A program made the position numbers. DNA of 28,462 nucleotides from Bdellovibrionia bacterium. Its GTDB lineage: Bacteria; Bdellovibrionota; UBA1018. The stretch is taken from assembly GCA_045805065.1 (NCBI GenBank), contig JBJMMA010000051.1, positions 1 through 28,462 on the forward strand, read 5' to 3'. Shown piece after piece: positions 18,001 through 28,462 of this stretch; the first letter of the stretch is position 1, and each line of letters opens with the position of its first letter.

Positions 18001-21000
18001 GTCATGCTGGGTGTTCCGCCACCAAAGAAAATGGTTTCAAGCTCGGGCGAAAGCAGAGGTCCCATCTGCTCGCATTCTGCTTTCAGTGCTTTTTCAAAAG
18101 CGTCGGCATCGCCTGCTTTGGTTTTTTCACGACCCAGCGAATAGAAATCGCAGTAATGGCACTTGGCTTCGCAGAATGGAAAATGGACGTAGAGCGATTT
18201 CATCTGTAGCGACGATATACCGAGTCGGTTGGACCTTTGAAAGCCTAAAAGGCCACACCCGAAATACCAAGCTTATCGCTCGATATTCCGGGTGCAGCCT
18301 CAGTGCAATGAGGAGATGAGCGCCTGATCAGGCGGGCACCCGAGGGTTAGTAGCTGCCTCCTGAAGTGGTGGTTCCTGCAGTTCCAGCGCTCTGCTGGAC
18401 GTTTGTGCCGCCAGCTACTCCAGCTGCTGAGCTAGGAGATGTGGCCGGAGAAATTCCACCTGCTACGCCTCCTCCAATAACTCCTCCTCCAATGATTCCT
18501 CCGCCTCCGATACCAGCTGATTGTGTCGGAGTTGCCGTTGGCGTAGCCGCGGTTCCAGCAGAGCTACCCACTTGCAGCGCGCCTGACATGCTGGCTGCTC
18601 CGTGAATTGCGCAGTGGTAGGCGATGATTCCCGAGACGCTTCCATCGAAGGTTCTGGTGTAGCTTTGTCCAGGCTGCAACGTGCCCGAGTCAAAGCTGCC
18701 ATCATCTGCGGTCACCGTATGTGGAGCGTTATCATTATTCACCCAGGTGACGGTCGTTCCCGCAGGAATGACAAGCGGGTTAACTCCGTAAGCGGCTGGG
18801 CCCATTCCAATAGAACCTTGTGGGATCGCTACCGTCACGCATTGTGGAACGGTTCCAGGTGATGCCGTGGACGTTGGTGTAGCTCCAGGTGAAGCGGTTG
18901 CTTCAGGCGACGCTGTTGCGCCAGGTGAGGCCGTCGCACCCGGAGACGCGGTTGCGCCAGGCGAACTCGACGTTAATGGGCAGGGATAAAGGACGCCAGG
19001 ACTTGCTGAAGCCCCTGGATTAGATGTGCCACCATTTTGTCCGTAAACTGCAATTGCGCCAAAGACGCTTAAGCTTGCGACTCCGGCTGCAAACAGCCCG
19101 AAAGCTTTTTTCATGGGTTGTCTCCTTCTCGATTCTCAAGAGTAATGACCGGTTCGCCAGTCCAACTTTGTCGACGTTTTATGCTCGGAATGCATCGAAG
19201 GTTCCATGGCTGGGTGAGGCAAATCGGTAGGCTTTAAGATTTACGATGCGGTCCGGTTCTTCTGGTTCTATTGAAAGGGCGGCGTCTTGCGGAAAATGAA
19301 AAGGCCCGCTCATTTGCTCCTGTCACTACCACTGAGTGAAGCGAATGAACGGGCCGTACTTTTAAGACTTAAGCCGCATTACCGGGTGTTGCTGGTGGTA
19401 TAACTATAAACTCCTCCACCCGTGCTTACTGGCACGGTACCACCGGCGATTCCTGCAGATTGAGAAGGTGAGGCCGAAGGCGAAGCACTCACTCCGGGCG
19501 ATGCTCCAGCGGCACCACCGACTTGCAGCGCGCCTGACATGCTGGCTGCTCCATGGATTGTGCAATGGTAAGGGATATTTCCTGAGACGCTTCCATCGAA
19601 AGTTCTCGTGTAGCTTTGTCCCGGCTGGAGCGTGCCTGAGTCAAAGCTTCCGTCATCTGCGGTCACCGTATGTGGAGCGTTGTCATTGTTCACCCAGGTG
19701 ACGGTCGTTCCCGCAGGAATGACAAGCGGGTTAACTCCGTAAGCAGCTGGGCCCATCCCAATTGCGCCTTGTGGGATCGCAACAGTCACGCATTGTGGTG
19801 TAGTGCCCGGAGATGCAGTCGCTCCGGGTGAAGCGGTCGCACCAGGCGAGCTTGTTGTGGCTGGGCAGGGATAAAGGACACCAGGACTTGCTGAAGCCCC
19901 AGGGTTAGATGAGCCTCCTCCTTGTCCGTAAACTGCGATTGCCCCGAAAATACTAAGACTTGTGACTCCGGCTGCGAACAGCCCGAAAGCTTTTTTCATG
20001 GGTTCTCTCCTTCTCCATTGTGAAGAGTCAGAATTGGCTCGCTTGTACAAAGAAATCGACGATTTGAATGGGGGATGCATCGAGGATTCCATGGCGGGAA
20101 GAGTTAAGCTGACTTTTCGAAGCCGCTTCTTTTAAAAGTGATTCAGGAAGCTTAATTTCAGCTACCGAAGAAGCGTCTTTAATCTGGCTATGAGAGATGG
20201 AGCGCAATTGGCGCGGAGAGGAGATTGCAGTTTCATTCGTTCTTCGCGGACGATGTTGACCAAATTATTTACGAGCTTGTTAAACTGCTTTTCCTCTTTG
20301 ATTTTTTCAAGCCTGTCTTTGGCAGGTTTCATATCCTCCGGATCGGATAATACCATCGCAAGCAGCGCATCGCCCATTAGGAACGCAAGCTGGCTTTGGA
20401 ACATAAGTTGAGGCTCATTCCGAGTGACGAGAGCCACTGTTCCATGCAACGCGACCATGGCTAGCCGTGCACGAAGCGTTTTAAGTCGGAGCGCAATCTG
20501 TTCTTTGGTTAAGGCGGGGTCATTCATTACTTTCGATAAAAATGGTTCGATGGATTGGACTCGATCGGAACCTAAGTGAAGGAGACCTTCGGCGATATTC
20601 TTTAAGGCGAGTTCGCGCTGATGCTCAGAAAGAAGCTTGAGCGGTTGCACTGCGTCCGCGAATCTTTTCTGAAACGCAGTGACCTCAGCACGGTCCGGTT
20701 TTGGAGCTTCCGAAAGCAATTGAAGATCAATCATTAAAGAGTACAACTTCTCCTTCAATCCATCAGGAATGTAATGCGCATCTTTAAATGAATTTTCGAG
20801 TACGGAAAAAGGGATAAAATTATCAATGGTTGGGACATTGTTCCAAATTTCTCGAATTTCTTCTGGCGCGGAAACATTGAGTCGTACAGCTTGATTGAGC
20901 TGCTTCAGATCCTCAAACGTGGCTGCTTTTCTTGCGAGAGTAATGAGCTCGTTTAACGGGATCAGGTTTCGAGTGTGGCCTTTGGGATTAGATAAAACGG

Positions 21001-27000: not shown

Positions 27001-28462
27001 GTGACTTCGTGTGGATGCTGGATTTTGGGTAGCGCGACCCCGAAGCTGTTTTGGGGGAGTGTCGCTCTCAACTCATCTGTGATCTTTTTGATCGCGTCGA
27101 CGAGCTTTTGATTCTCGGCATCCTCAGTCGCGCTGACCGGATTCATCGCTCTGGCTGGCGTGATCCACAGCGGATTGAGACCGAGTCCCAACGAACTAAT
27201 GATAAGTGCGAGTACTACACCTTGCTTCACCTGTTTTGCGACACGGACGCTCATGCAATAACTATCGGAATTTTATATAAGATTCTTTAGATCAACTAAA
27301 AAACGGTTAGGATTCTGCTGACTTAAATAATTAGGGTTCCCTCAATCGTTTAAACAGGCGATGCTGATAAGGGTCCACTAGGAAAGGATAGGGTGAGTGC
27401 GCGTGCCAATGTGCCGTCTTCTATTTGGAATTGCTCTGGTTTTGGCAGGCGGAATGGTCCAATCCGCTTTGGCCGCGGATCCGTGCGTTAAGGACTCGCT
27501 TCGTGCTCGGTTCAGTTCTTTCTTTTCCAAGCCTGCCGCTGAGTCGCATGCCCAACCCGCTGTTCAGAAGGAAGCTCTCAAGCCTATGATGACCCATGCT
27601 GCTGTTGCTTCTGCGGAAAAGCTGACGATCGATAGTGAAGTCAAAGCCGCAGGAATGATGCCGCGAGGATCCGCGGTGATGACGAGCGCTGGGTTGCTTG
27701 AAGCGCAGGGCATTCGCAATATCATCCATGCTGCAAGCGGAAGCATGACGAAGTCAGGACCAAAGTTTGGGCCTAACCTCGATGGCGTCGTCAACTCGGT
27801 TCACAATTCGCTTGAGCTGGCTCGTCGCAATGGACATCAACGCGTTGCTGTCCCTTTCATTGGTGGCAAGATTTTTATCGATAGCATTGGAATCCCGGCT
27901 CAAGAACTCGCTAATCAGATTGTCGATGCGGCCTTGAAGTCTCGTGGAAACCTTGAGCTACGCTTTGTCACTTTTGGAGCTGAGGATACGACGCTTTTTC
28001 AAAATGCGCTGAAGCGCCATGCAAGCGAAGTGTCGCCTCAGCTTGCTCAGGTTACTCCTGGATCGATTACTGATTTTAATGTCCATGGCGCGAGCGCAAT
28101 CATCAATGCTGCCAATATGGAAATTCAGTTTGGCGGTGGCTTGTCAGGTGCAATTGGGCGAGCAACAGGTCGCGCGGATCAGATCAACGGAGAAGCGCAA
28201 AAAGCGATTCGCGAGTTTTATCAAACTCATCAGTAAATCCCGGCGTTTGTGCCTGTTTGAGCTTTAAAAGCAAAAGGCCCGCGCAGGACAACCCGCGCGG
28301 GCCTTTTTAATTAACTAAACCAGACACGGCTCCGGCTCACCACTCGTCACCGTCGCCGCCTCCGCGACGACCACGGTCACGATCTTTGCCGCGGTTATGG
28401 TCTCTGCCGCGTCCGCGATCACCGCGTCCGCCGCCTTCGCCGCCACCACCGAAACCGCCACC

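What a model noticed while it worked through the whole genome (the two positions that open the first line are those of the whole stretch)
20162..28236. A mobile Cys-helix tag (C-[ILVMF]-x3-L-x3-L) marks about 60 secreted effector-type enzymes at either end of the mature c [...]
64 proteins in 39 unrelated families carry a signal peptide, mostly a cytosol-type enzyme domain (Ser/Thr kinases, J-domains, AAA protease, nucleotidyltransferase-ART, RelA/SpoT synthetase, macro, GNAT, methyltransferase, HAD phosphatase, GalK, UGPase, ATP-grasp, PLD, mTERF) and one cysteine in a short amphipathic helix, either 9-20 aa from the C-terminus or just after the signal-peptide cleavage site, in an otherwise almost Cys-free chain. 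The tag is gained with the signal peptide, swaps ends between orthologues and is phylum-wide: a candidate sorting or delivery signal of the predator's effector set (three tagged genes in a row at C51: g00704 and g00705 C-tag, g00706 N-tag).
Evidence so far: Cys peak at -11..-13 in secreted proteins only (14,6,16 of 382; call 27); a matrix trained on C-tags finds the N-terminal form: 10 of 122 secreted vs 0 of 185 non-secreted sites; list and 39 families; 97 of 99 signal-bearing ATP-grasp homologues have the tail Cys, 96 a Cys-free body; 21 of 23 AAA-M41 homologues have a tail Cys and the other 2 an N-terminal one; cytosolic paralogues g03375 and g03142 lack signal and tag; UGPase family 15 of 19 signal+ vs 25 of 92 signal-, p=4e-5.
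(Added by a program. Inside this text positions count along the whole contig: contig position 1 is position 1 of the stretch shown here. "Call 12" and the like, gene names such as g00115 and contig names such as C1 are that model's own, and its searches are not shown. The text may have been shortened before it was handed on; [...] marks where a part breaks off. The agent that wrote the report below was given it as the finding of a first reader that could run no searches.)

Follow-up and report, generated by a model that had tools for sequence, protein, structure and literature searches.

The report
Cysteine-helix tag on predator effectors
Many bacteria-eating bacteria of the Bdellovibrio group put one cysteine followed by a short greasy helix at either end of dozens of unrelated exported enzymes that need a cell interior to work, which looks like an undescribed address label for delivering them into prey.

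Summary
The tag is real. With my own gene calls, the motif lies in the tail of 14 of 637 secreted versus 1 of 1224 cytosolic proteins; about 60 proteins in about 35 families carry it. The three window genes are tagged, but none fits the title motif literally. The general form is one Cys opening an amphipathic terminal helix, and its register differs by genome. Homologues keep it (33 of 39; 114 of 120), switch ends at least three times, lose it together with the signal peptide, and once build it by an Ala-to-Cys change in the domain's own last helix. Tags of unrelated proteins from one genome resemble each other (p about 0.002; controls null), as expected if one reader per genome recognises them. 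It is phylum-spanning but patchy: 12 of 50 secreted proteins in one genome, one chance-like hit among 116 in another. It lacks the membrane helix and basic tail of MYXO-CTERM. Most likely it is a docking and disulfide tether to a shared export or delivery partner, released in prey cytoplasm. The partner was not found and nothing is shown experimentally. Nine paper searches and four note look-ups showed no earlier description.

The parts
20162..22438 (-).
   Evidence: ORF; no Pfam or NCBIfam hit; conserved GGT-RD..D-x-D and HGT motifs in alignment A1; weak Foldseek hits to CCA-adding enzymes and an ART fold, E 0.02-0.1; domain labels are inference
22364..22438 (-). Signal peptide of the 758-aa protein (residues 1-25)
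   Evidence: hydropathy and AxA rule; not SignalP
20165..20206 (-). C-terminal tag: Cys745 plus helix 746-757 (CAPSLIARLKTLLR)
   Evidence: AlphaFold helix 746-757 after a low-confidence linker, pLDDT about 48; tail Cys in 33 of 39 homologues
22470..27254 (-). Secreted 1594-aa ClpA/ClpB-like AAA+ protein (g00705) with a single Cys
   Evidence: Pfam AAA and AAA_2, NCBIfam Clp models below cut-off, ClpA/ClpB structures; the M41 protease label was not confirmed for this protein
27147..27254 (-). Signal peptide of the AAA+ protein (residues 1-36)
   Evidence: rule-based
22473..22505 (-). C-terminal tag: Cys1584 plus CIKRHIEESLF
   Evidence: the same-genus orthologue (G001) and the G036 orthologue also end in a Cys-helix
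27397..28236 (+). Secreted 279-aa macro-domain protein (g00706), divergently transcribed
   Evidence: Pfam Macro E 9e-10; NCBIfam macro models below cut-off
27397..27474 (+). Signal peptide of the macro protein (residues 1-26)
   Evidence: rule-based
27484..27513 (+). N-terminal tag: Cys30 plus CVKDSLRARF
   Evidence: terminal Cys in 18 of 30 signal-called homologues, moved to the C-terminal helix in one clade

Best explanation
The Cys-helix is a cargo label for two-step effector delivery. Step 1 (inferred from sequence): the enzyme crosses the predator's inner membrane by Sec, which keeps it away from the predator's own ATP, NAD, acetyl-CoA and DNA. In some lineages it is first held as a lipoprotein and freed at an R-x-[PVLI]-A-[SAQ] site. 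Step 2 (inferred): in the oxidising periplasm the free terminal helix docks in a hydrophobic groove of one shared, predator-encoded carrier or export component, and its lone Cys forms an interchain disulfide with it. Step 3 (inferred): the cargo is taken to the prey cytoplasm, where reduction releases it, as with disulfide-tethered A chains of A-B toxins. Shown: the tag, its link to the signal peptide, one tag per chain, either end, repeated origin, genome dialects. Not shown: the partner, the bond, the route, the prey.
For: Cargo needs a cytoplasm: kinases, J-domains, NIF phosphatases, GNAT, GalK, UGPase, RelA/SpoT, ATP-grasp, AAA+, macro, and in other genomes a receiver domain, a LuxR-type HTH (below cut-off), IucA/IucC, NUDIX and ClpB-M41, which point to bacterial targets. 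The Cys is kept while the rest of the tail is not alignable: 33 of 39 (chance 3.6% each) and 114 of 120, 102 of 103 signal-called. Signal and tag go together: a nested five-member ATP-grasp clade (support 0.998, one event) lacks both, as do the cytosolic GalK, UGPase, HODM and DnaJ paralogues and a signal-less macro clade that includes a Bacteroidota protein. One tag per chain: among 74 complete signal-bearing foreign homologues, 56 tail only, 8 N only, 5 both (mostly lipobox Cys, mis-starts or a domain Cys), 5 none. At least three C-to-N switches in the nucleotidyltransferase family. In a macro clade (100/100) with no N-terminal Cys, the domain's last helix has Cys where the others have Ala, so the feature is selected, not only carried along. 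Tags of non-homologous proteins are more alike within than between genomes (81 foreign tags, 79 pairs, difference 0.378, p=0.0015; five control windows p 0.23-0.82). Two adjacent G316 tags share 9 residues but only 18 of 30 bases. Both models show the tag as a separate, less ordered helix opened by the Cys. A disulfide tether released on reduction is documented for typhoid toxin (PMC6469816, passages).
Against: No partner found. The single Cys of GspH is absent from its homologues in the other genomes where the gene was recovered. PilA has an even Cys number in nearly all rich and poor genomes alike. Secretin and Lgt copy numbers do not follow tag richness in 81 genomes. No T6SS or phage sheath, VirB4 or second FlhA in this genome, which is 94% complete. 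No recurring neighbour family. Three complete signal-bearing nucleotidyltransferase paralogues here lack a tag, and 12 of 30 signal-called macro homologues have no terminal Cys. Some cargo (PLD, hydrolases, trehalase, peptidases) could act outside a cytoplasm. Body Cys stays low in the signal-less ATP-grasp clade, so Cys depletion is not independent support. Signal peptides come from a rule with visible errors both ways. Genomes in the dialect test are related, so its p value overstates.
Confidence: 0.45

Rival explanations
1. Sorting signal read without a lasting disulfide: an unknown envelope enzyme acylates or otherwise modifies the Cys, and the lipidated amphipathic helix anchors the enzyme in the outer membrane or vesicles for transfer to prey.
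For: Cys plus amphipathic helix suits a membrane anchor (hydrophobic moment 0.37-0.44 versus 0.30 shuffled). Cys-dependent sorting with predicted lipidation exists in MYXO-CTERM (PMC11980579, abstract). An enzyme reader would also give genome dialects. Two Lgt genes are present.
Against: The N-terminal Cys lies 3-20 residues after cleavage and mostly not in a lipobox. Some proteins carry both a lipobox and the tag (13 of 120 ATP-grasp proteins), which would be redundant. Two or more Lgt genes are the rule in tag-poor genomes too. There is no membrane helix or basic tail.
Confidence: 0.2
2. The tag is read by the prey: it crosses or docks on the prey inner membrane by hijacking a prey thiol protein or import route, like the escort domains of myxobacterial SitA toxins.
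For: No predator machine tracks the tag. Escort-domain entry of lipoprotein toxins into the cytoplasm is known in myxobacteria (PMC10433427, passages).
Against: Dialects follow the predator genome. The tag is 5-15 residues, far smaller than known translocation domains (own knowledge).
Confidence: 0.12
3. Tags pair with one another (disulfide-clasped helix dimers) for stability or retention, with no dedicated reader.
For: A single Cys and an amphipathic face allow self-pairing; self-pairing could also give genome-level similarity.
Against: It gives no reason for restriction to cytosol-type cargo, for de novo gain in a monomeric-type macro domain, or for loss together with the signal peptide.
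Confidence: 0.1
4. The target is a eukaryote (for example a protist), and the host S-acylates the Cys-helix to place effectors on membranes, as recalled for some Legionella and Salmonella effectors (from memory, not checked).
For: Several domains are eukaryote-like: Hanks kinases, NIF phosphatase, PF01704 UGPase.
Against: A receiver domain, a LuxR-type HTH, RelA/SpoT and ClpB-type cargo fit bacterial targets. A membrane address on every cargo type is unlikely. No T4SS or T6SS was found in this genome.
Confidence: 0.07
5. Artefact or neutral trait (gene-calling, signal rule, composition).
For: The member list was curated by eye and the signal rule is crude.
Against: Blind counts, unselected homologue sets and negative genomes analysed with the same script all show a specific signal.
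Confidence: 0.02

Closest known systems
MYXO-CTERM / myxosortase MrtX (PMC11980579, abstract and outline read; bioRxiv 10.1101/2023.06.07.544157, listing only)
   Same: A short terminal signal with an invariant Cys on dozens of unrelated Sec-exported proteins of a predatory phylum.
   Different: No membrane helix, no Arg-rich tail, works at the N-terminus too, cargo is cytosol-type enzymes and not surface proteins, no NCBIfam CTERM model hit in 57 proteins.
Disulfide-tethered A chains of A-B toxins, e.g. CdtB-PltA of typhoid toxin (PMC6469816, passages read)
   Same: A Sec-exported enzyme that acts in a cytosol and is linked by one reducible disulfide to a delivery partner: the working model here.
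   Different: One generic tag on 35 or more families, no co-encoded B subunit or fixed neighbour, probable bacterial target. It works like this by hypothesis only and is not a member.
SitA lipoprotein toxins with escort domains, and the Tad/Kil and T3SS* killing systems of Myxococcus (PMC10433427, passages read)
   Same: Large scattered repertoires of envelope-exported effectors that reach a bacterial cytoplasm; some tagged proteins are lipoproteins.
   Different: No escort domain, no recurring immunity neighbour seen, enzymes of many kinds and not only nucleases; a single FlhA.
Lipoprotein signal (lipobox, Lgt/LspA)
   Same: A Cys near the mature N-terminus in the N-tagged form.
   Different: The Cys is not at +1, usually has no lipobox, occurs at the C-terminus more often, and can coexist with a true lipobox.

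Membership tests
MYXO-CTERM and related Cys-CTERM signals | Invariant Cys in a short signature motif near the C-terminus | tested here: met
   Tail Cys in 114 of 120 and 33 of 39 homologues; flanking residues differ from the glycine-rich signature (recalled)
MYXO-CTERM and related Cys-CTERM signals | Transmembrane helix after the Cys | tested here: not met
   The Cys is 5-21 residues from the end and the helix is amphipathic and charged; members were called with no TM after the signal; one member has a hydrophobic extension
MYXO-CTERM and related Cys-CTERM signals | Arg-rich cytoplasmic tail | tested here: not met
   Mean net charge of tags +0.3 to +0.7, no basic cluster after a TM
MYXO-CTERM and related Cys-CTERM signals | Match to a curated NCBIfam CTERM model | tested here: not met
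   None among 57 proteins at E up to 0.05, best 5 families per protein shown
MYXO-CTERM and related Cys-CTERM signals | Cleavage by a CPBP sortase that co-occurs with the tag | not tested
   CPBP copy numbers were not profiled
Lipoproteins (lipobox) | [LVI][ASTVI][GAS]-C with Cys at +1 of the mature chain | tested here: not met
   N-tag Cys at +3 to +20, contexts such as ADP-C, TDS-C, YAN-C; a few fit by chance
A-B toxin A subunits | Interchain disulfide to a delivery partner, reduced in the target | not testable with these tools
   Needs biochemistry; the complex predictor was not available
A-B toxin A subunits | Co-encoded cognate B subunit | tested here: not met
   No recurring neighbour family among 586 flanking proteins, other than tagged families and generic signalling or housekeeping genes, nor in this genome
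Tat substrates | Twin-arginine S/T-R-R-x-F-L signal | tested here: not met
   0 of 58
T6SS / eCIS cargo | Sheath genes in the genome and cargo without Sec signals | tested here: not met
   No PF04984 or PF05943 match in a 94% complete genome; cargo has signal peptides

The most novel reading that the evidence does not exclude
Many Bdellovibrionota run an undescribed general delivery system: tens to more than a hundred Sec-exported cytosol-type enzymes and regulators per genome are each clipped by a position-independent Cys-helix to one shared carrier that brings them into the prey cytoplasm and frees them by reduction. The tag is simple enough to arise by point mutation and co-evolves with its reader genome by genome.
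Probability: 0.4. Interest if true: 0.92.

Novelty: categorically new. Interest (0 to 1): 0.8.

Why it matters
How predatory bacteria get enzymes into the prey cytoplasm is open; for myxobacteria a 2023 review says the killing factors and delivery details are unknown (PMC10433427, passages). The tag gives a sequence handle that lists candidate cytoplasmic effectors, two thirds of them without a Pfam domain, in any genome of the phylum. It separates tag-rich from tag-poor lineages even within one genus, which may mark different ways of feeding. A signal that works at either end and can arise by one substitution differs from the sorting signals I compared it with.

Tried and rejected
Partner hunts that failed: single Cys in T2SS GspH and GspJ (GspH homologues elsewhere have none; GspJ was only partly covered); odd-Cys PilA paralogues (2 of 6 here have 7 Cys; of 31 PilA-type homologues from 30 foreign loci, 30 have an even number); Lgt copies (79 of 81 f20 genomes have two or more); secretin copies (mostly 4); T6SS and sheath; VirB4 (weak hits in 2 of 5 genomes, none here); second FlhA (none in 5); one-Cys secreted non-members, mostly ordinary hydrolases; conserved neighbours; GxxGNGG proteins (also in tag-poor G133, mostly even Cys; Atlas gave nothing usable). 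The Atlas search with the N-tag region gave no usable hit. A DNA pattern for the short tail form was too noisy (hundreds of matches per genome). PLD genes of tag-poor genomes showed no convincing tag. No A3 relative in viral contigs or the PDB. Foldseek gave no match at E up to 0.001 for the A1 model. No RNA holder was listed; short DNA contigs of three soil runs of one study match parts of the stretch and say nothing on expression. The complex predictor was not available, so tag-tag pairing is untested. Paper searches without a description of the tag: (open-access library only; subscription papers and all supplements unseen).
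Full report
Setting. The window is contig C51 of a 4.22-Mb genome, 94% complete. Relatives of its genes lie in records titled Bdellovibrionota, Bacteriovoracaceae and Pseudobdellovibrionaceae. 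I called 3971 genes with my own hexamer model and classed them with a hydropathy and cleavage-site rule. Neither is a standard predictor, and both make visible errors.

Observation. The three genes are there and each has a signal and a terminal Cys-helix. The literal motif is in the tail of 14 of 637 secreted and 1 of 1224 cytosolic proteins, and near the mature N-terminus in 6 versus 0. One-Cys secreted proteins of 300 aa or more have the Cys in the tail in 19 of 68 cases, 2.7 expected; cytosolic 1 of 76. A matrix trained on tails finds 7 of 184 secreted N-terminal sites and none of 326 cytosolic or 2073 body sites; the reverse training finds 6 of 163 versus 1 of 226, p=0.023. I curated 58 members in 35 BLAST families, the largest with 17; about 8 more fit loosely. 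The title motif fits 24 of 58 and none of the window genes. Tagged genes cluster: 17 adjacent pairs among 66 genes versus 1.4 at random, partly tandem paralogues.

Cargo. Of 54 members scanned, 18 have a clear enzyme domain: four Ser/Thr kinases, two J-domains, two NIF phosphatases, GNAT, GalK, UGPase, RelA/SpoT, methyltransferase (below cut-off), ATP-grasp, PLD, hydrolase, C26 peptidase, and an HODM-reductase. The window adds an AAA+ protein and a macro domain. The 758-aa protein has nucleotidyltransferase-like and ART-like parts by motifs and weak fold hits only. In other genomes tagged proteins include a receiver domain, a LuxR-type HTH, IucA/IucC, NUDIX, ClpB-M41, an acyltransferase, trehalase and an M3 peptidase (13 of the 30 scanned had hits). 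Most of these need ATP, NAD, acyl-CoA, SAM, DnaK or DNA, which a periplasm lacks (established knowledge). No NCBIfam sorting-signal model was hit.

Conservation. Of 39 homologues of the 758-aa protein, 33 have a Cys in the last 30 residues; chance is 3.6% each; two misses are flagged partial, three lie on short contigs and look truncated, one has it at -47. Of the best 120 of 197 ATP-grasp homologues, 114 have exactly one tail Cys; 102 of 103 signal-called do; bodies hold 7 Cys in 57,097 residues. Five homologues with hydrophilic N-termini all lack it and form one nested clade, a single joint loss (tree of 45 of the 120 plus an outgroup). Their bodies are also Cys-poor, so depletion is not independent evidence. 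Cytosolic paralogues here lack signal and tag. Exceptions: three complete signal-bearing nucleotidyltransferase paralogues lack a tag, and only 18 of 30 signal-called macro homologues have a terminal Cys.

Either end, one per chain, repeated origin. Among 74 complete signal-bearing foreign homologues, 56 have a tail Cys only, 8 an N-terminal one only, 5 both and 5 none; 10 more were not signal-called, of which the 2 clearly cytosolic ones have none. In a 54-row tree of the large nucleotidyltransferase family (26 tail, 13 N, 1 both, 7 none, 7 open-ended; one N label is a mis-start), N-tags form a supported clade inside tail-tagged rows and appear twice more beside tail-tagged sisters. In the macro family a 100/100 clade has no N-terminal Cys and carries Cys where others have Ala in the domain's own last helix. 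So the tag can arise by substitution. Both AlphaFold models show a terminal helix that starts at the Cys, with lower confidence than the body (about 48 and 63).

Dialects. Outside this genome the usual register is C-x2-phi-phi-x2-phi (hydrophobic at +4 in 90% of 58 tags); here it is C-phi-x3-phi-x3-phi. Some genomes use a short C-x2-L-F form, others +4/+7. With tags picked without a pattern (one terminal Cys, Cys-free body), cross-family pairs within a genome are more alike than between genomes: 81 foreign tags, difference 0.378, p=0.0015; four body windows and the flank give p 0.23-0.82. With this genome included the effect is smaller (0.112, p=0.04), since that set includes false positives. 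Related genomes are not independent. Two adjacent tags in G316 share 9 residues but 18 of 30 bases.

Range. The tagged ATP-grasp family occurs in at least 8 families of the phylum (34 of 301 genomes match, a few being cytosolic), and the 758-aa family in 7 of 301. One loose rule on sampled stretches gives, among complete secreted proteins: G062 12 of 50 (cytosolic 0 of 64), G330 4 of 23 (0 of 18), this genome 50 of 907 (31 of 1448); G194 2 of 76, G053 2 of 44, G129 2 of 50, G217 2 of 63, G032 1 of 30, G133 1 of 116, the last three looking like chance. The G062 and G330 stretches came from contigs known to hold a tagged gene. In family f20 the nucleotidyltransferase family is in 9 of 81 genomes, with 20 matches in G371 and none in three genomes of the same genus; the macro family is in 2 of 81. 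I take f20 to hold the cultured Bdellovibrio-type lineages (inference from closed 2.7-4.0 Mb genomes). If so, the model invader has few or no tags, which would explain why the signal was missed. Only about a tenth of G133 was read.

Lipoprotein variant. Thirteen of the 120 ATP-grasp proteins are lipoproteins, and 12 have R-x-[PVLI]-A-[SAQ] soon after the lipobox. Among 102 foreign lipoproteins, 7 of 10 with that motif are tagged versus 4 of 92 without; the set is enriched for marker families. This suggests release from a lipid anchor, and argues that the tag is not itself the anchor (inference).

Mechanism. The simplest reading is a label read by one predator-encoded partner: a helix for docking and a Cys for a reversible covalent clip that opens in a reducing cytoplasm. 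Typhoid toxin shows such a reducible tether (PMC6469816, passages). The genome has T2SS, type IVa pili and Tad-type systems but no sheath, TssC, VirB4 or second FlhA. Every candidate partner I tested failed. I give about 0.75 to some sorting or delivery role (the best explanation plus the first two rivals) and 0.45 to the disulfide-carrier form.

Literature. Nine searches found no description. I saw passages of PMC12419801 (secreted Bdellovibrionota effectors, no such tag), PMC10433427, PMC11656739 (no occurrence of 'cysteine', 'motif' or 'signal peptide'), and the abstract and outline of PMC11980579. Subscription papers and supplements were not seen. Four look-ups of earlier scan notes gave other Cys tails but not this one.

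Verdict. A real, strongly selected and apparently undescribed terminal signal on the likely cytoplasmic effector set of many Bdellovibrionota. It fails the tests for MYXO-CTERM, lipobox, Tat and T6SS cargo. Its function is inferred and its partner unknown.

Noticed in passing
own genome, e.g. L204 (G000:C251:22681-23697), L205, L206: About 20 secreted proteins begin their mature chain with a glycine-rich G-x-x-G-[NG]-G-G motif, often followed by a Cys; mostly even Cys numbers, no clear Pfam domain; also seen in G133, G371 and G217. Possibly a second targeting motif.
   Followed up: partly
L095, L098, L108, L127, L131, L135, L269; P0100-P0159: R-x-[PVLI]-A-[SAQ] motif 5-15 residues after the lipobox of tagged lipoproteins; a candidate release site.
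   Followed up: partly
window 8642-10240 (+): Secreted 532-aa protein without Pfam hit, with a GGG-x-RG motif like the nucleotidyltransferase-type families and Cys-helix-like stretches at both ends, but about nine mature Cys; not counted as tagged.
   Followed up: no
L025 (G000:C60:28390-30693): Paralogue of the 758-aa protein whose tag is followed by a hydrophobic, membrane-like extension of about 40 residues.
   Followed up: no
L282, L283 (G000:C37:7869-8579; C152:18581-19318): Six PilA-like paralogues in this genome; two have seven Cys including a Cys-Cys pair.
   Followed up: partly
L299:8518-9804, L289:33-623: A LuxR-type HTH protein and a response-regulator receiver domain carry signal peptide plus tag: possible exported regulators of prey gene expression.
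   Followed up: no
window 18347-20092 (-): Two tandem secreted paralogues with Ser/Pro/Gly/Ala-rich repeats and a cupredoxin-like motif directly beside the tagged genes; untagged.
   Followed up: no
L071: A record titled Sulfitobacter carries Bdellovibrionota-type tagged genes in a genome collection entry; its title may be wrong.
   Followed up: no
   Followed up: partly
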